Shown: piece after piece, positions 21,491 through 25,964 of the stretch | Layout: every line of letters starts with the position of its first letter | Numbering within the stretch: the stretch's first letter is position 1 | Source of the DNA: Candidatus Saccharimonadota bacterium | GTDB lineage: Bacteria > Patescibacteriota > Saccharimonadia > CAILAD01 > BJGX01 | DNA: 46,921 nt | Direction: 5' to 3' | Assembly (NCBI GenBank): GCA_037133995.1 | Contig: JBAXNA010000001.1 | Coordinates: forward strand, 1 to 46,921 | Program-made: the position numbers and the translations under genes | Notes under the pieces: model-generated | Database searches by the model: none | Told to the model about the DNA's origin: nothing | The model's input: only the letters and a program-made list of their open reading frames with translations

Positions 21491-22003
21491 ATGCCTTATC
21501 CGTCTCAAGATCTACACTCAAAATATTCTACTGAAAAAAAACAACGAGAGTTTGAATTGATTGACGAATTCTTAAAAATTTGCCCAGACTTTAATGGCTA
21601 CGAGTTTATGCAGTTCTCAGAAAACCCAGACATGATTTATCAGAAAGGTGATGCTCAGATTGGCTTTGATAGTGTAATAGTTTCTGAAGACCAAGCAACA
21701 GTTGATTGTTATTTTGACGCACAAATGTGCACCGTTAATCTACCGACCAAGTTAACCCAAGATGAAAAGAATGATAAAATTGCGGTTTTTTTCGAAAATA
21801 AACTCTTCAAACACTGGCGACGATATGCACTACCAACTGTTTTAGTTTTTTCGCTTGTTGATACTAAGCAGACAGACTTTGTGGATATAGTTGATGTAGC
21901 AAGTAGGTTTAAATTGCCAGCTTTTGAGCTTTTTAACATACTAGATTACTATTTGAGTGATGGTAAAAAGTTTGTCAAGATAGCAGAGACTAAACCTGCC
22001 TAG
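21491..22003 (+). CDS. hypothetical cytoplasmic protein
   Basis: 170 aa. No TM helix or signal peptide and no motif I recognise. Has its own TGATATAAT 6 nt upstream of the ATG, overlapping the nuclease stop codon region. Confidence 0.5.
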   Translation: MPYPSQDLHSKYSTEKKQREFELIDEFLKICPDFNGYEFMQFSENPDMIYQKGDAQIGFDSVIVSEDQATVDCYFDAQMCTVNLPTKLTQDEKNDKIAVFFENKLFKHWRRYALPTVLVFSLVDTKQTDFVDIVDVASRFKLPAFELFNILDYYLSDGKKFVKIAETKPA

Positions 22004-22009
22004 AATCAA

Positions 22010-22432
22010 TTACTTTAGAGTACCTATTTCATATCCTGCCAGAATCCTATTAGCTCCAGCTGAGTGCCCGCTTCTGCGCCCACCTTTAGTATTGTAAGCA
22101 GTGGTGGCATCTTGGCCACAAAATATTAGTATTAAATCGGCTCCACCCGGGTGCATGTCTAAATATTTTGTAACGTCATATACATTACCTTCTATTGCTA
22201 GCCAGCAGTCTCGCGGGGTACTATGTTTTGAAACTTCCGAAAGACCATAGGTATTACCGACAGTCTTACTGGAGTTAGAACTTTGGCTAGGCTCAGATTT
22301 TGAAGGCTGCGAATTATTAATTTGATTCTCGCTATCGGCCTCTTTCTGTTGCTTAGAGATGAAGCCCCAGCCAACCATTGTACCCATAGCAATGAAATAA
22401 AATATTAGAGTAACTAGTACAGCTTTCTTCAT
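22010..22432 (-). CDS. membrane-anchored cytochrome b5-like heme-binding protein
   Basis: 140 aa. One N-terminal TM helix, an S/N/Q-rich linker, then a b5 core WLAIEGNVYDVTKYLDMHPGG...GQDAT...GHS. Both axial His contexts are present (HPGG and GHS). The start overlaps the upstream gene's stop (ATGA). Confidence 0.75.
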   Translation of the reverse strand: MKKAVLVTLIFYFIAMGTMVGWGFISKQQKEADSENQINNSQPSKSEPSQSSNSSKTVGNTYGLSEVSKHSTPRDCWLAIEGNVYDVTKYLDMHPGGADLILIFCGQDATTAYNTKGGRRSGHSAGANRILAGYEIGTLK

Positions 22433-23733
22433 GATAGGTCAAACTCCTCTGTATTTATATTTCGTTTTTTTACACCTAGTTGCTTGAGTTGTGCTTTTAG
22501 GCTTTTCATCATTGACGGTGGACCACATATCATATAATTTGCGCCATCTAAGGACTTACTATTTTTTTGGATGTAGCTAGCGGTAAGATAGTTATTTTTA
22601 CTTTCAGTGAATAAAATAATTTTCAGATTAGATTTTTTGTTGGCTATTTTTTCTAGTGTAGGCAAATAAACTGCATCATCTTTTGTTTTAGCACAATAAT
22701 ACAAATCAACACTCTGGCTATCTTCTAGGGCTTTTGCCATGGATACGAATGGCGTTACTCCAATTCCTCCAGCTATCCATATCTGCCTAGGGTTTTTTAC
22801 AATCGCGTTAGAAAATGTTCCATAAGGACCATCTATTTTTACTTTTGTTCCAGATTCTGCTGTGGCCAGTAGAGCGGTGTAATCACCGAGATTTTTAATA
22901 CCAAAATTAAGAGATTTGTCATTTGGTCCTGAGCTCATAGAGAAAGGATGACTTTCACCAAGAACACCATCTAATTCTAGTTTTATAAAAGCAAACTGTC
23001 CTGGTGCAAATACAAGAGGCTTGTCTTGGGGTGAAAGTTGAAGCTCATAGCTATTACCAAGAGGTATGATTTTATATAAACTATAGTCTAAATATTTAGA
23101 AAAATTACCTTGAAACAATGAACGGTATACGTAGACTACGGCAGCCAGGCCAATTAGTAGCAGGTAATAAATTTGTAAGCCAATCATTCCAGTCTTAATA
23201 GCTAGGTCGCTTCCGCCCACAAAAAATGCGTGAATACCGCCTAAGAATAATACTAGGCCTAGTAAGCGCTGAGCTAATATAAATCTTTTGTAAGCAACAT
23301 GCATATATAGAGTGACTACAATTAGAGCAATCATGCAATATAGGGCGATCACACCTAAATTCTTAAATGGTGACTCAAGACCTGGCTTTACGAACTCATA
23401 AGCAGAAATAGGGGAGCTTAGAAAGTACCTAAATGTAATCAGTAATGGGTGAATGAGAAGTAGTATGAGGGCCAAGCAACCAATAATGTGGTGAGCTCTA
23501 TAGGTGTTATCTAGCCCCATGAAGAGTTTATTATAAATCTTTAGTCTTGCGCTAAGAATAACATTCCAGGCAAAAAGCGCCATACCTGCCAGTCCGGCTA
23601 ATCTGCCAAGATTGTCTGATATATTTTTGGCTGTATCGAACTGAGCCGGCATAGAAACCATCCAAATTGTAATAGGTATAACTGCCACAAATATAGTAAT
23701 AAGCCAGCCAAGATTCGTATAGCGATTTCTCAT
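22429..23733 (-). CDS. NOX / ferric-reductase-family transmembrane flavocytochrome (FRD + FAD + NAD(P)H domains)
   Basis: 434 aa. About 6 TM helices, with a His pair 12-13 residues apart in one helix (YRAHHIIGCLALILLLIHP). The FNR-type module has HPFS (FAD), GGIGVTPF (NAD(P)H) and CGPPSM. Confidence 0.8.
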   Translation of the reverse strand: MRNRYTNLGWLITIFVAVIPITIWMVSMPAQFDTAKNISDNLGRLAGLAGMALFAWNVILSARLKIYNKLFMGLDNTYRAHHIIGCLALILLLIHPLLITFRYFLSSPISAYEFVKPGLESPFKNLGVIALYCMIALIVVTLYMHVAYKRFILAQRLLGLVLFLGGIHAFFVGGSDLAIKTGMIGLQIYYLLLIGLAAVVYVYRSLFQGNFSKYLDYSLYKIIPLGNSYELQLSPQDKPLVFAPGQFAFIKLELDGVLGESHPFSMSSGPNDKSLNFGIKNLGDYTALLATAESGTKVKIDGPYGTFSNAIVKNPRQIWIAGGIGVTPFVSMAKALEDSQSVDLYYCAKTKDDAVYLPTLEKIANKKSNLKIILFTESKNNYLTASYIQKNSKSLDGANYMICGPPSMMKSLKAQLKQLGVKKRNINTEEFDLS

Positions 23734-23859
23734 ATGGTTATATTATAGCAAACTTATACTTTATAACAGTTAGCCTCAGTAGGACTTTTAATGTTAAAGA
23801 TAGAAATATTTCTGCGGTGGGAATATATTTGGTCTTGATGAGATAATTATGAGCTACGG

Positions 23860-25236
23860 CTACTCGGTTCTAAGTGCCTCAATTGGGTCTAGTTTGGCAG
23901 CCTTACGAGAAGGTAGCCAGCCAGCCAGAATAGATATAACTATCAACGCGACTATGAGGGCAATGATTTGAGCCGGATCAAATATAAGTATGCTATTACC
24001 TTCGCCAAGATTTAGTCTTTGGGTTATCCAGGGGTTTAGGCTAAGACCAAGTATTACAGCAAGACTAGAGCCAATAATGCCTCCTAGTAAACCAATCCAG
24101 CCGGCCTCAAATCTAAATAGCCGGCCAATATCTCGCTTGCGCATACCCAAAGCTTTCATTAGGCCTATTTCTCGAGTCCTTTGCAGCACTGATATGTACA
24201 TGGTATTTATTATTCCAAAAACCGAAGCTATAATCGCGATAAACCCAAACCCGGCTACTATACCTTGCAAGACACCAATAATGTTAGTCAAAAACTCTTG
24301 AGTTTCTTTGACGGTTCTTACCTGAAAGCCAAGGTCTTTCACTTTCTGGGCAACGGCATTTAGCTTGGCAGGGTCATTGCCTCCATCGACTTTTACCAAC
24401 ACAAAATTATATTTTCGAAAGTCAGAAGATCCTTCTAGGCTAATGTCATTTAGTCTACGAGCCTCTTCAAGTGGAGTATAAATATACAGCTCTGTGCCAG
24501 GCTGGGAAGTAACTGGCTTTTTAGAAACGGCTATTATTGTGAGCTGTTTTTCTATAGCGTTAGCCTGGGCTTGTGCAGCGAATTCTTCTGGAGTCTGAGC
24601 TAGTGTGCCACTTTGCAGTTGGCTTCTTATCTGCTCTGGGGTAATGTTTCTGGGAATCGACACAACAACTGTTTTGCCAATCGCATCAGCCGCATTATCG
24701 AAGCCTAAGTCTGATAGGTAGCCCTCTGGCAGTACAATGTTTAAGCCACTAAAGTTGTCATCTATATTACCCGAAAGCAGATCTGGCCTTTGAGCCGGAT
24801 TATAAGAAGCGATTGTGGCTACAAACTTTTTTTGGTTTGGCCTGGTGATGTAGTTGGCGTTAACAGTAATATCTTCACGAACTTTTTCGACGCCAGCTAC
24901 GTCAGCAATTTTTTTGATATCAGACTCAGTAATTTTTTTAATCTGAGTTGTTGCGCCAGCATTAGACGTGCTAGTACCAAAACTAGGATCATATTCTCTG
25001 GGTTTAGCGCTATCTCGCTGGCCAAAAAGAGAGTTGTCTGCAGCTACAATTAGCTCGCTTGGGTCAAAATTGTCATTAATAATTTTGTTCACGTATGATT
25101 TTGCGCCGTTACTAGCGGCTAGAGTTAGGGAAAGGGCGAAGGTACCAACCGCAATAGCCAGGGCAGTCAAGATAGTTCGTCCTTTTGCGCTGCGAATGCT
25201 TCGCCAGGCTCTTCGAACGGTATCAATGATATACAT
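23860..25236 (-). CDS. ABC transporter permease, MacB/FtsX type
   Basis: 458 aa. TM1, a ~280-aa extracytoplasmic domain and a C-terminal FtsX 3-TM bundle (REIGLMKALGMRKRDI). 1-nt overlap with the ATPase gene. Confidence 0.85.
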   Translation of the reverse strand: MYIIDTVRRAWRSIRSAKGRTILTALAIAVGTFALSLTLAASNGAKSYVNKIINDNFDPSELIVAADNSLFGQRDSAKPREYDPSFGTSTSNAGATTQIKKITESDIKKIADVAGVEKVREDITVNANYITRPNQKKFVATIASYNPAQRPDLLSGNIDDNFSGLNIVLPEGYLSDLGFDNAADAIGKTVVVSIPRNITPEQIRSQLQSGTLAQTPEEFAAQAQANAIEKQLTIIAVSKKPVTSQPGTELYIYTPLEEARRLNDISLEGSSDFRKYNFVLVKVDGGNDPAKLNAVAQKVKDLGFQVRTVKETQEFLTNIIGVLQGIVAGFGFIAIIASVFGIINTMYISVLQRTREIGLMKALGMRKRDIGRLFRFEAGWIGLLGGIIGSSLAVILGLSLNPWITQRLNLGEGNSILIFDPAQIIALIVALIVISILAGWLPSRKAAKLDPIEALRTE

Positions 25237-25964
25237 TATTGGCTGACCTTTTTAGTGGAGTTTATTACTGGTGATTTTATGCCTGGGTGAAGCTTTACGG
25301 TTTTTTTGATTTCACCATCCTTCATAAATATTTGCTCATCACAGCGCTGGGCCAGCTCTTGGTCGTGCGTAACAATCACGATAGTAATTCCACGCTTTTT
25401 ATTAAGTTCAAGAAGTAAGTTTATTATAACTTCACCTGTGGCAGTATCCAGATTGCCAGTGGGCTCGTCTGCAAAAATTAATTTAGGTTTGTTTACAATA
25501 GCTCTAGCAATTGCGAGGCGTTGTTTTTGACCTCCAGAAAGGTTTTTGGCCAGACTATCCACTTTATCTTCTAGGCCAACAGATTTTAAGGCTAAAAGAA
25601 CATCTTTACGTCTATCACGCCGGGCTACTCTAGCAATTTCAAGTGGTAACATTACATTTTGGTAGCAGCTCTGATTGGCCTCAACAAAAAAAGATTGAAA
25701 TATAAAGCTCATTTCCTTAGACCTAAATGCATCAATCTGCTTGGGCTTTAGGCCAACCAAACTCTTGTTGTTGACTACTACCTCACCACTACTTACATGG
25801 TCAAGGCCACTCATCACGTGCATAAGAGTAGACTTACCAGAGCCACTCTTGCCAATAATTGCAACAGTACTGCCGTCGGCTATTTCGGCGCTAACATTAT
25901 ATAGAGCGGTAAATAGATTGTCTCCTTTACCGTATGTTTTACAAACATCTTTTACGCTTATCAT
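25236..25964 (-). CDS. ABC transporter ATP-binding protein (MacB/LolD-like)
   Basis: 242 aa. Walker A GKSGSGKST, signature LSGGQKQR, Walker B LIFADEPTGNLD, H-loop VTHD. Confidence 0.9.
   Translation of the reverse strand: MISVKDVCKTYGKGDNLFTALYNVSAEIADGSTVAIIGKSGSGKSTLMHVMSGLDHVSSGEVVVNNKSLVGLKPKQIDAFRSKEMSFIFQSFFVEANQSCYQNVMLPLEIARVARRDRRKDVLLALKSVGLEDKVDSLAKNLSGGQKQRLAIARAIVNKPKLIFADEPTGNLDTATGEVIINLLLELNKKRGITIVIVTHDQELAQRCDEQIFMKDGEIKKTVKLHPGIKSPVINSTKKVSQ

What the first reader, a model, noticed from the sequence alone, without database searches (positions are those of the whole stretch)
22010..23750. Translationally coupled NOX/ferric-reductase flavocytochrome and membrane-anchored cytochrome b5-like protein
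Seen in sequence: the 434-aa protein joins a ~6-TM ferric-reductase-type domain to an FNR-like dehydrogenase module.
- The TM domain has a His pair 12-13 residues apart in YRAHHIIGCLALILLLIHP.
- The dehydrogenase module has HPFS, GGIGVTPF and CGPPSM.
- Its stop overlaps the start of the next gene (ATGA at 22429-22432).

That next gene encodes a 140-aa protein with one N-terminal TM helix, an S/N/Q-rich linker and a cytochrome b5 core. Both heme-ligand contexts are present (HPGG and GHS).

Established knowledge: NOX/FRE enzymes move electrons from cytosolic NAD(P)H through FAD and two b hemes across the membrane to O2 or Fe(III). Stand-alone bacterial NOX homologues exist, for example in Streptococcus.

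Inference: if the b5 domain faces outward, the pair would be a two-component trans-membrane electron export chain ending on an extracytoplasmic b5 heme. For an organism that otherwise looks fermentative and host-dependent, plausible roles are iron reduction and uptake, superoxide generation at a host interface, or redox support for an external enzyme. It would also imply heme acquisition. A second clean H-x12-14-H pair is not obvious in the TM domain, so the heme stoichiometry is uncertain.
Basis: partly seen in the sequence, partly recalled or inferred. Interest (0 to 1): 0.65.

Follow-up and report, generated by a model that had tools for sequence, protein, structure and literature searches.

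The report
NOX-like reductase with outward cytochrome b5
A lake-water Saccharibacteria genome carries a two-gene unit, a membrane NAD(P)H-oxidising haem enzyme and a cytochrome b5 tethered outside the cell, that most likely moves electrons out of a cell lacking a respiratory chain; the pairing was already noted in a 2021 preprint, but this copy has lost one of the four canonical haem-binding histidines.

Summary
The 434-aa protein (22429-23733, minus strand) has Ferric_reduct, FAD_binding_8 and NAD_binding_1 domains. Its closest solved relative is SpNOX. Its stop overlaps the start of a 140-aa cytochrome b5 (ATGA).

The b5 has an N-terminal anchor helix, a disordered Ser/Asn/Gln-rich linker and a bis-His b5 core. 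That core is closest to the periplasmic, disulfide-bonded Ectothiorhodospira b558 (1CXY). Charge bias and an invariant Cys pair place the b5 domain outside the cell.

The pairing is strongly conserved. It occurs in 51 of 80 genome loci, always immediately downstream on the same strand. These span Patescibacteria, DPANN archaea and a few other lineages. A relative carries eight tandem b5 domains.

The missing "second His pair" has an explanation. The position of the inner-haem ligand on TM5 (SpNOX H129) is Gln155 here. It is Gln or Met throughout this Saccharibacteria clade.

Best reading: a quinone-free chain from NAD(P)H through FAD and haem(s) to an external b5. The terminal acceptor is unknown.

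The gene linkage was reported in bioRxiv 10.1101/2021.11.17.468889, so the pair is a new member of a known, functionally untested kind.

The parts
23742..23750 (-). Promoter-like extended -10 box (TGCTATAAT). It ends 8 nt before the ATG of the reductase gene, so the bicistronic mRNA may be leaderless or nearly so.
   Evidence: Read directly. This is inference only. The consensus scan did not list it, because there is no -35 hexamer at standard spacing. No terminator-like site lies between the upstream ABC permease and this gene.
22429..23733 (-). Gene for a 434-aa SpNOX-like flavocytochrome (long-form bacterial ferric-reductase-domain protein).
   Evidence: Pfam PF01794+PF08022+PF00175. phmmer vs PDB: SpNOX 8qt6/8qq7, E 7e-37 over residues 47-422. 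AlphaFold2 pLDDT 85.7, pTM 0.77. Foldseek top hits are SpNOX, TMq 0.77 / TMt 0.84.
23116..23712 (-). Six-helix transmembrane haem domain (residues 8-206). The N-terminus and the TM2-3 and TM4-5 loops are positively charged, which places them in the cytoplasm.
   Evidence: Hydropathy and loop charges. Helices H8-27, H35-60, H74-106, H124-143, H148-168, H184-206 in the model.
23449..23493 (-). TM3 haem ligands: His81 (inner; aligns with SpNOX H69) and His95 (outer; aligns with SpNOX H83), spacing x13.
   Evidence: Alignment to SpNOX. Both are His in 120 of 121 homologues, with one gapped row. SpNOX ligand assignment from PMC11564096.
23230..23271 (-). TM5 positions: Gln155 in place of the inner-haem ligand (SpNOX H129), and His168 (outer; SpNOX H142), spacing x12.
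   Evidence: Alignment to SpNOX. Position 155 is Q58/H42/M21 among 121 homologues, and H168 is invariant. W151->F covaries with H155->Q/M.
22432..23091 (-). Cytoplasmic FNR-type dehydrogenase domain (residues 215-434). It has HPFSM (FAD), GGIGVTP (NAD(P)H), CGPP, and the C-terminal EEF aromatic residue.
   Evidence: Pfam. SpNOX DH domain 8qq5, E 4e-29. The motifs are invariant in 121 homologues.
22429..22432 (-). ATGA overlap of the stop and start codons (translational coupling). The Shine-Dalgarno GAGGAG lies at 22444-22449.
   Evidence: The same 4-nt overlap occurs in about 20 related loci, and all other partner genes start within a few tens of nt.
22010..22432 (-). Gene for a 140-aa membrane-anchored cytochrome b5.
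   Evidence: Pfam Cyt-b5, E 1.9e-22. The best PDB match is E. vacuolata b558 1CXY, E 6e-20. Foldseek vs 1CXY gives TMt 0.95, rmsd 1.0 A, 46% identity.
22367..22423 (-). N-terminal signal-anchor helix (hydrophobic core residues 4-22, preceded by MKK).
   Evidence: Hydropathy 1.99. AlphaFold2 helix 2-35. The N-flank is more positive than the C-flank in 41 of 46 family members.
22253..22354 (-). Ser/Asn/Gln/Pro-rich flexible tether (residues ~27-60).
   Evidence: Sequence. pLDDT <50 for residues 39-56. Length and sequence vary among homologues.
22013..22252 (-). b5 haem domain (residues 61-140). The axial ligands are His94 (HPGG) and His123 (GHS). The Cys76/Cys105 pair corresponds to the two Cys of the disulfide-bonded periplasmic b558.
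   Evidence: The Cys pair and H94 are invariant in 46/46 NOX-linked b5 proteins, and H123 is present in 43/46. The disulfide and signal peptide of the E. vacuolata protein are reported in PMC8877833.

Best explanation
**Proposed function.** The two genes encode a quinone-independent trans-membrane electron-export couple.

**Proposed electron path.**
1. The cytoplasmic FNR-type domain of the 434-aa protein oxidises NAD(P)H and reduces its FAD.
2. Electrons cross the membrane through the haem(s) held between TM3 and TM5.
3. The solvent-exposed outer haem (His95/His168) hands them one at a time to the bis-His haem of the 140-aa cytochrome b5.
4. The b5 is anchored by its N-terminal helix and swings on a flexible tether at the outer face of the membrane.
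5. The b5 then reduces an external acceptor that is not encoded beside it. Candidates are Fe(III), O2, organic oxidants or a surface protein.

**Net effect.** The result is re-oxidation of NAD(P)H and/or reducing power outside the cell, in an organism of a group that lacks a respiratory chain.

**The three-His variant.** In this Saccharibacteria clade the inner-haem site is remodelled (His to Gln155, Trp to Phe151). The chain therefore has either an unusually ligated inner haem (His/Gln here, His/Met in sister sequences) or only one membrane haem, as in STEAP.

**Shown versus inferred.**
- Shown: domain identities, predicted topology, conservation of the pairing, and the residue substitutions.
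- Inferred: haem loading, direction and partner specificity of electron transfer, the terminal acceptor and the physiological role.
For: 1. **Enzyme identity.** Pfam domains. SpNOX is the best sequence match (E 7e-37) and the best fold match (TMt 0.84). FAD and NAD(P)H motifs are invariant.
2. **Topology of the reductase.** Six TM helices with positive-inside loops put the dehydrogenase domain in the cytoplasm.
3. **b5 faces outward.**
   - The N-flank is MKK and the C-flank is neutral to acidic. The same bias holds in 41 of 46 relatives.
   - The Cys76/Cys105 pair is invariant in 46/46. It aligns with the two Cys of 1CXY, a protein reported to have a disulfide and a signal peptide (PMC8877833).
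   - Shorter relatives carry signal-peptide or lipoprotein N-termini.
4. **Conserved linkage.**
   - A b5 gene lies immediately downstream on the same strand in 51 of 80 genome loci, always with one N-terminal helix.
   - In a b5-centred metagenome scan, 8 of 8 anchored b5 genes with upstream sequence available have the reductase upstream.
   - Linkage persists down to about 35% reductase identity and into DPANN archaea.
5. **Modular outside carriers.** Relatives have 2 or 8 tandem b5 domains (L035, L076). Others have ApbE (L083) or a fumarate-reductase-like flavoprotein (L065) beside the same reductase. This parallels the ApbE/FMN 'MsrQ-like' export systems of Actinobacteria (PMC8238504).
6. 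**Published SpNOX work.** The outer haem is solvent-exposed, cytochrome c is reduced directly, and the authors suggest an unidentified protein acceptor (PMC11564096).
7. **O2 is not the designed acceptor.** The NOX-specific His-119 position is Ile99, and it is Leu/Ile in nearly all homologues and never His (signature from PMC3591440).
Against: - No biochemical data exist for any member. Haem binding, b5 reduction and orientation are all predictions.
- One of four canonical haem ligands is missing (Gln155), so trans-membrane transfer by the standard two-haem route is not assured.
- No terminal acceptor, iron transporter or external reductase is conserved next to the pair.
- About a third of related reductase loci have no detectable b5 neighbour.
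- Expression evidence is one 166-nt metatranscriptome contig, which could be DNA carry-over.
Confidence: 0.7

Rival explanations
1. Assimilatory ferric (or cupric) reductase. The pair exists specifically to reduce extracellular Fe(III) for uptake, with b5 as the iron-facing haem. This is a special case of the best explanation with the end use fixed.
For: The TM domain belongs to the ferric-reductase superfamily. By the Zhang et al. signature it resembles FRE rather than NOX, because it has no His-119 equivalent. Related 'MsrQ-like' systems sometimes sit beside VIT1 iron transporters (PMC8238504).
Against: No ferrous-iron transporter (Feo, VIT1, EfeU, NRAMP, ZIP) is conserved among neighbours in 83 loci. 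SpNOX has only negligible direct ferric-reductase activity (PMC11564096). b5 domains are not known iron-chelate reductases.
Confidence: 0.15
2. Inward-facing b5. The FNR domain acts like NADH-cytochrome b5 reductase, and the b5 delivers electrons on the cytoplasmic side to a membrane desaturase or hydroxylase (for example in lipid or carotenoid modification), as in the eukaryotic ER system.
For: The dehydrogenase domain is homologous to cytochrome b5 reductases (7rom E 5.6e-9, 2eix E 3.4e-8). JGI labels relatives 'cytochrome b involved in lipid metabolism'.
Against: - The positive-inside rule puts the b5 domain outside.
- The Cys pair is invariant and matches a periplasmic disulfide-bonded b5.
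- The anchor is N-terminal, not the C-terminal tail anchor of ER b5.
- Relatives have signal peptides, lipoprotein boxes and multi-domain surface architectures.
- A six-helix haem domain would be superfluous for this role.
- No desaturase or hydroxylase is conserved nearby.
Confidence: 0.06
3. Haem capture rather than electron export. The tethered b5 is a surface haem-binding receptor for a haem auxotroph, and the flavocytochrome reduces or helps transfer the captured haem.
For: The organism's group is not expected to synthesise haem, yet the operon needs two or three haems. The b5 domain sits outside, where host- or environment-derived haem would be met. The preprint on CPR b5-like proteins discusses redox-dependent haem affinity for the Tyr-ligated class.
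Against: - This b5 is the classical bis-His type with invariant HPGG/HS ligands. That type binds haem tightly in both redox states and is an electron carrier in all characterised cases.
- Chains of 2-8 b5 domains fit a conduit better than a receptor.
- No haem-transporter family was recognised beside the pair. The upstream ABC system matches MacB/LolCDE-type families, not a named haem system.
Confidence: 0.06
4. True NADPH oxidase. The enzyme's product is superoxide or H2O2 released at the host interface, and b5 is accessory or regulatory.
For: SpNOX reduces O2 in vitro (PMC5676040). The organism lives in oxic lake water.
Against: - The family lacks the NOX-specific His-119.
- The SpNOX authors themselves doubt that O2 is the physiological acceptor.
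- The protein fails the four-His NOX filter.
- A tightly coupled, co-conserved haem partner argues for protein-to-protein transfer.
Confidence: 0.03

Closest known systems
SpNOX, the Streptococcus pneumoniae NADPH-oxidase homologue (PDB 8QQ7, 8QT6; PMC5676040, PMC11564096, PMC11031084)
   Same: - Same architecture and size: six TM helices plus an FNR-type FAD/NAD(P)H domain.
- About 25% identity, E 7e-37. Full-length fold match, TMt 0.84.
- Same H-x13-H on TM3, same outer TM5 His, same FAD and NAD(P)H motifs, and short extracellular loops.
   Different: - SpNOX has all four haem His. Here the H129 equivalent is Gln155, and the Trp four residues before it is Phe.
- SpNOX has no known partner. 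Here a cytochrome b5 gene is translationally coupled.
CPR 'pFre'-cytochrome b5 gene clusters (bioRxiv 10.1101/2021.11.17.468889, section 3.5)
   Same: A ferric-reductase-domain gene co-localises with a cytochrome-b5-domain gene in a CPR genome. The preprint found this in 185 of 1427 pFre-bearing CPR genomes and proposed a membrane complex of unknown function.
   Different: - The preprint centres on Tyr-ligated MAPR-like b5 (cytb5MY) with CBLA/CBLB proteins and a two-component system. The window has only a classical bis-His, disulfide-type b5 and no adjacent two-component system.
- The preprint saw no such linkage outside CPR. Here it also appears in DPANN archaea, on a 1.4-Mb Acidimicrobiales contig (L070) and on a 62%-GC Dehalococcoidia contig (L051).
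Ectothiorhodospira vacuolata cytochrome b558 (PDB 1CXY), the prokaryotic secreted cytochrome b5
   Same: - Best sequence match (E 6e-20) and best fold match (TMt 0.95, rmsd 1.0 A, 46% identity) for the b5 domain.
- Both Cys are conserved.
- Same insertion before the second His ligand relative to eukaryotic b5.
   Different: b558 is a soluble periplasmic protein with a cleavable signal peptide. Its function is unknown and no reductase partner is known (PMC8877833). The window protein is tethered by an uncleaved anchor and linker and is coupled to a reductase.
'MsrQ-like' flavinylation-associated electron-export systems of Actinobacteria (PMC8238504), and E. coli MsrPQ
   Same: A PF01794 haem domain, often fused to PF00175, is proposed to carry cytosolic NAD(P)H electrons to an extracytosolic carrier protein. 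Actinomycetota members of the very same reductase family appear in my tree. ApbE sits beside DPANN and Saccharimonadales paralogues.
   Different: The outside carrier there is an ApbE-flavinylated FMN-binding protein, or MsrP for MsrQ. Here it is a b-haem protein, and the window has no ApbE or FMN_bind gene.
STEAP/YedZ short-form ferric-reductase domains
   Same: Gln occupies the TM5 position of the cytoplasm-proximal haem ligand (Zhang et al., PMC3591440).
   Different: STEAP/YedZ also replace the TM3 inner His by Arg and lack a fused FNR domain. Here His81 is invariant and the protein is a long form. Zhang et al. reported that long forms have all four His.

Membership tests
Bacterial NOX family as defined by Hajjar et al. 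2017 (PMC5676040) | FAD-binding motif H[PSA]F[TS][LIMV] | tested here: met
   HPFSM at residues 262-266. H262, P263 and F264 are (nearly) invariant in 121 homologues. Filter text.
Bacterial NOX family as defined by Hajjar et al. 2017 (PMC5676040) | [quoted passage not shown] | tested here: met
   GIGVTP at residues 323-328.
Bacterial NOX family as defined by Hajjar et al. 2017 (PMC5676040) | Four His coordinating two haems (bis-histidyl pairs on TM3 and TM5) | tested here: not met
   H81, H95 and H168 are present. The fourth position (SpNOX H129) is Gln155. It is Q or M in the whole Saccharibacteria clade.
Bacterial NOX family as defined by Hajjar et al. 2017 (PMC5676040) | Six transmembrane helices followed by a C-terminal dehydrogenase region | tested here: met
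   Hydropathy, AlphaFold2, Foldseek to SpNOX.
Bacterial NOX family as defined by Hajjar et al. 2017 (PMC5676040) | NAD(P)H-dependent reduction of O2 to superoxide | not testable with these tools
   Needs an enzyme assay. The NOX-versus-FRE signature residue His-119 (PMC3591440) is Ile99 here, and it is Leu/Ile in nearly all homologues and never His. This argues against a dedicated O2 site.
Long-form bacterial ferric-reductase-domain proteins (FRD superfamily, PF01794+PF08022+PF00175) | All three domains in one polypeptide | tested here: met
   Pfam hits above the gathering thresholds for all three domains.
Cytochrome b5 (PF00173), classical bis-His type | b5 fold with the HPGG and HS axial His ligands | tested here: met
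   Pfam E 1.9e-22. H94 and H123 are conserved. Model pLDDT >90 over residues 60-139, with Foldseek hits to many b5 structures.
Cytochrome b5 (PF00173), classical bis-His type | Bound haem b | not testable with these tools
   Requires spectroscopy of the expressed protein.
Prokaryotic secreted, disulfide-type cytochrome b5 (E. vacuolata b558 type) | Conserved Cys pair forming a disulfide | tested here: met
   Cys76 and Cys105 align with the two Cys of 1CXY and are invariant in 46/46 relatives. Formation of the bond itself was not tested.
Prokaryotic secreted, disulfide-type cytochrome b5 (E. vacuolata b558 type) | Export signal placing the domain outside the cytoplasm | tested here: inconclusive
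   The protein has an N-terminal hydrophobic helix with positive-inside bias, but it looks like an uncleaved anchor rather than a cleavable signal peptide. No dedicated topology predictor was available.
CPR pFre-cytochrome b5 cluster (bioRxiv 10.1101/2021.11.17.468889) | PF01794 gene and PF00173 gene within 10 kb in a CPR genome | tested here: met
   The genes are adjacent and overlapping. The nearest genome relatives are Candidatus Saccharibacteria MAGs.
CPR pFre-cytochrome b5 cluster (bioRxiv 10.1101/2021.11.17.468889) | Tyr-ligated cytb5MY, CBLA/CBLB proteins and a two-component system in the cluster (proposed ancestral form) | tested here: not met
   The only b5 here is bis-His. The HMM scan of the whole window finds no second b5 or reductase. 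Flanking genes are a MacB-type ABC pair and an orphan ORF.
MsrQ-like flavinylation-associated system (PMC8238504) | [quoted passage not shown] | tested here: not met
   Neither is present next to the window genes. ApbE is present beside related reductases in L083, L062, L034 and L037.
STEAP/YedZ single-haem ferric-reductase domains | Arg replacing the TM3 inner His, and Gln replacing the TM5 inner His | tested here: not met
   The TM5 position is Gln155 (met), but the TM3 inner His81 is retained and invariant. Definition from PMC3591440.

The most novel reading that the evidence does not exclude
The module is the core of an all-b-haem, quinone-free extracellular electron conduit. Respiration-less ultra-small cells (Patescibacteria, DPANN) would use it to discharge NAD(P)H electrons onto outside acceptors or host surfaces. 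In this lake Saccharibacteria clade, the His-to-Gln/Met change at the inner-haem site is then an adaptive retuning of the long-form enzyme. It gives either a His/Met- or His/Gln-ligated haem of higher potential, or a STEAP-like single-haem route. Either way, electrons would be steered to b5 rather than leaking to O2 in oxic, sunlit water.
Probability: 0.3. Interest if true: 0.75.

Novelty: new member of a known kind. Interest (0 to 1): 0.45.

Why it matters
- **A natural partner for bacterial NOX homologues.** SpNOX and its relatives are used as structural models for human NOX, but they have no known physiological acceptor. The SpNOX structure paper explicitly suspects an unidentified protein acceptor. 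A translationally coupled, co-conserved, outward-facing cytochrome b5 is a concrete candidate that can be tested with two recombinant proteins.
- **A trans-membrane redox route in groups said to lack one.** Patescibacteria and DPANN are described as ancestrally lacking electron-transport chains (PMC7507113). A widespread NAD(P)H-to-outside haem route would change how their redox balance and host interaction are modelled.
- **A natural experiment on the inner haem.** The three-His (Gln/Met) variant found here bears on whether NOX-type domains need a bis-His inner haem at all.

Tried and rejected
- **Failed search, then repeated.** The first b5 alignment (A3) was too divergent for the search for related loci. 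I repeated the search with a closer set (A4).
- **Neighbour clustering** across 83 loci looked for a conserved terminal acceptor. None was found beyond b5 variants, DUF4352 proteins, large PKD/InlB-like surface proteins, ApbE and, in Actinomycetota, a fumarate-reductase-like flavoprotein.
- **Upstream ABC pair as a haem exporter.** I considered that the MacB-type pair is an Hrt-like haem exporter. NCBIfam gives only generic MacB/LolCDE/FtsX matches below the cut-offs, so this stays speculative.
- **Alternative inner-haem ligands.**
  - His145 is not conserved.
  - His82 is equally common in the H-type and Q/M-type sequences, so it is not a compensating change.
- **Expression evidence.** The search found one RNA run with a single 166-nt contig, which is too weak to use.
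- **Literature.**
  - The STEAP4 structure paper gave no statement about the TM5 Gln.
  - The Saccharibacteria genetics paper (PMC10633639) mentions none of ferric, cytochrome, heme, reductase or NADH.


Full report
**1. Observation**

Both ORFs are present as described: 22429-23733(-), 434 aa, and 22010-22432(-), 140 aa. The stop of the first overlaps the start of the second (ATGA). A GAGGAG Shine-Dalgarno sequence lies 11 nt upstream of the second start.

Pfam gives these domains:
- Ferric_reduct at residues 46-165.
- FAD_binding_8 at residues 226-306.
- NAD_binding_1 at residues 320-412.
- Cyt-b5 at residues 65-139 of the small protein (E 1.9e-22).

An HMM scan of every stop-to-stop frame of the window finds no second copy of either gene. 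A TGCTATAAT extended -10 box ends 8 nt before the reductase ATG. No terminator-like site precedes it. The pair may therefore be its own, nearly leaderless, bicistronic unit. That point is inference.

**2. The reductase**

The best solved relative is SpNOX (8qt6/8qq7, E 7e-37, residues 47-422). An AlphaFold2 model built on 28 homologues is confident (pLDDT 85.7, pTM 0.77) and shows six long helices followed by an FNR fold. Its best Foldseek matches are the three SpNOX structures (TMq 0.73-0.77, TMt 0.79-0.84), ahead of DUOX1, NOX2 and NOX5.

Loop charges follow the positive-inside rule. The N-terminus, the TM2-3 and TM4-5 loops and the dehydrogenase domain are cytoplasmic.

In SpNOX, H69+H129 bind the inner haem and H83+H142 the outer haem (PMC11564096). 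In the alignment these four positions correspond to H81, Q155, H95 and H168 here.

Among 121 homologues, H81, H95 and H168 are invariant. Position 155 is Gln in 58, His in 42 and Met in 21. The residue one helical turn earlier switches from Trp to Phe together with it.

On a tree of 83 reductases, the window sits in a 100%-supported Saccharibacteria clade. Every member of that clade has Gln or Met and a b5 partner. An Actinomycetota clade with Gln but no b5 is a weakly supported neighbour.

Zhang et al. (PMC3591440) reported Gln at this TM5 position only in short STEAP/YedZ-type domains, together with Arg at the TM3 position. They stated that long forms keep all four His. This protein is a long form with three His. 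Two readings remain:
- The inner haem is kept with unusual ligation. Invariant His81, and Met as the alternative residue, favour this.
- The inner haem is lost, as in STEAP.

The protein passes the FAD and NADPH motif filters of Hajjar et al. but fails their four-His filter. It also lacks the NOX-specific His-119 equivalent (Ile99; Leu/Ile in nearly all homologues and never His). It should not be filed as a NOX in the strict sense. It most likely still works like one up to the outer haem.

**3. The cytochrome b5**

The AlphaFold2 model (pLDDT 84.1) has three parts:
- A helix at residues 2-35.
- A disordered stretch at residues 39-56.
- A b5 core with pLDDT above 90.

The closest structure by sequence (E 6e-20) and by fold (TMt 0.95, rmsd 1.0 A, 46% identity) is 1CXY, the Ectothiorhodospira vacuolata b558. 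That protein differs from eukaryotic b5 in having a disulfide and a signal peptide, which indicates a periplasmic location (PMC8877833). Its two Cys align with Cys76 and Cys105 here.

In 46 reductase-linked single-domain b5 proteins:
- Both Cys and His94 are invariant.
- His123 is present in 43.
- The flank N-terminal to the anchor is more positive than the C-terminal flank in 41 (mean +2.2 versus -0.1).

Eukaryotic b5s in the same alignment carry a C-terminal tail anchor instead. Shorter relatives found in metagenomes begin with signal-peptide or lipoprotein-type N-termini. Together these points place the b5 domain outside the membrane. No dedicated topology program was available.

**4. Conservation of the pair**

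- Three distant b5 homologues (41-52% identity) each lie directly after a reductase gene.
- A scan of one genome per species with a reductase profile returned 80 loci. A b5-domain gene follows immediately on the same strand in 51 of them. It always has one N-terminal helix, and about 20 share the same 4-nt overlap.
- A b5-centred metagenome scan found the reductase upstream in 8 of 8 anchored b5 genes whose contig reaches upstream.

The loci are mostly Patescibacteria: Saccharibacteria, Paceibacterota, and Zambryski-, Nomura-, Staskawicz-, Magasanik-, Buchanan- and Azambacteria. They also include:
- DPANN archaea, nested within bacterial sequences on the tree.
- A 1.4-Mb Acidimicrobiales contig and a 62%-GC Dehalococcoidia contig.

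**5. Variants that inform function**

- In one Saccharibacteria locus (L076), the pair is followed by a 1134-aa protein with eight tandem b5 domains. Each has HPGG and the Cys pair, and they are joined by Pro/Thr linkers.
- A Nomurabacteria partner has two b5 domains.
- Other Saccharimonadales operons add DUF4352 proteins and 700-840-aa surface proteins.
- In some DPANN and Saccharimonadales loci, ApbE sits beside the reductase.
- In Actinomycetota, a fumarate-reductase-like flavoprotein does.

This matches the modular picture of extracytosolic electron transfer drawn for ApbE-flavinylated 'MsrQ-like' systems (PMC8238504), with b5 as an alternative outside carrier.

**6. Mechanism**

The best-supported chain is NAD(P)H to FAD to membrane haem(s) to tethered external b5 to an unknown acceptor.

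The SpNOX literature independently supports the step to a protein acceptor (PMC11564096):
- The outer haem is solvent-exposed.
- Cytochrome c is reduced directly and faster than O2.
- The authors suggest that a physiological protein acceptor exists.

What the b5 reduces is not indicated by gene context.

The organism comes from lake-water metagenomes. Related loci place the pair next to heliorhodopsin and TspO genes, and the window has a carotenoid cluster 8 kb away. The habitat is therefore oxic and lit. O2, Fe(III) or organic oxidants are all available as sinks.

**7. Prior knowledge and novelty**

The co-localisation of ferric-reductase-domain genes with cytochrome-b5-domain genes in CPR genomes was reported in bioRxiv 10.1101/2021.11.17.468889. 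It was found in 185 of 1427 pFre-bearing genomes, with function unknown and the linkage thought CPR-specific.

Earlier reports of this scan describe the same module in other genomes and reach the same reading. They are not independent evidence.

This window adds three things:
- A minimal two-gene form in a freshwater Saccharibacterium.
- Further examples outside CPR.

I therefore rate the pair as a new member of a known but functionally untested kind.

**8. Limits**

- Nothing here shows haem binding, orientation or electron transfer experimentally.
- Expression evidence is negligible.

Noticed in passing
L076:5907-9308 (+), uncultured Candidatus Saccharibacteria contig CAZBGU010000001.1: A 1134-aa ORF lies directly after a reductase + anchored-b5 pair and carries eight tandem cytochrome b5 domains. 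Each domain has HPGG and the Cys pair, and Pro/Thr linkers separate them. It also has an N-terminal hydrophobic segment and C-terminal Cys-rich repeats. The ORF runs off the locus end.
   Followed up: partly
window 23860-25964 (-): The MacB/FtsX-type ABC pair sits directly upstream of the reductase on the same strand. Clear orthologues (47-54% identity for the permease, 62-67% for the ATPase) occupy the same position and orientation in L040, L054 and L075, whose reductases are only about 35% identical to the window's. This is either conserved Saccharibacteria synteny or a functional link, for example export of a cofactor or partner.
   Followed up: partly
L001:6454-7893 and L004:6431-8314: In the two closest long contigs, the pair is followed on the opposite strand by a conserved 218-aa multi-pass membrane protein and a heliorhodopsin gene. 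L004 also has a TspO/MBR (porphyrin-binding) gene. The window instead has a carotenoid cluster about 8 kb away.
   Followed up: no
L070:3785-6057 (Acidimicrobiales, 1.4-Mb contig) and L051:3905-5739 (Dehalococcoidia MAG, 62% GC): The reductase + anchored-b5 pair is present in high-GC, non-CPR genomes. The L070 reductase also has Gln at the inner-haem position, and its b5 protein is 305 aa. This contradicts the preprint's statement that the linkage is not seen outside CPR.
   Followed up: partly
L083:3133-3993, L062:3145-3996, L034:1568-2431, L037:1605-2465: An ApbE flavin-transferase gene (Pfam E 7.5e-50 for L083) lies directly beside related reductase genes in DPANN archaea and beside a second reductase paralogue in Saccharimonadales. 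This suggests a flavinylated outside carrier instead of, or in addition to, b5. The small downstream ORFs have no Pfam match.
   Followed up: partly
L095:2872-3240, L096:2938-3267, L097:1731-2048, L099:1918-2262: Short (105-122 aa) disulfide-type b5 proteins with signal-peptide or lipoprotein (…GAGC) N-termini have no reductase gene nearby. The exported b5 class is therefore wider than the reductase-linked one.
   Followed up: no
window 21491-22003 (+): The convergent 170-aa ORF with no Pfam or NCBIfam match is conserved (72% identity) in the nearest genome locus, L007, shortly after (about 630 nt beyond) and convergent to the b5 gene.
   Followed up: no
window 23281-23283 (residue 151 of the reductase): The Trp-to-Phe change one helical turn before position 155 covaries almost perfectly with the His-to-Gln/Met change at 155. 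Trp occurs in 90% of His-type sequences and Phe in 85% of Gln/Met-type sequences. The inner-haem/FAD-proximal pocket therefore appears remodelled as a unit.
   Followed up: partly
tree (L046, L062, L072, L074, L083): The DPANN archaeal reductases form one group nested inside Patescibacteria sequences. This is compatible with transfer between the two ultra-small-cell radiations.
   Followed up: no
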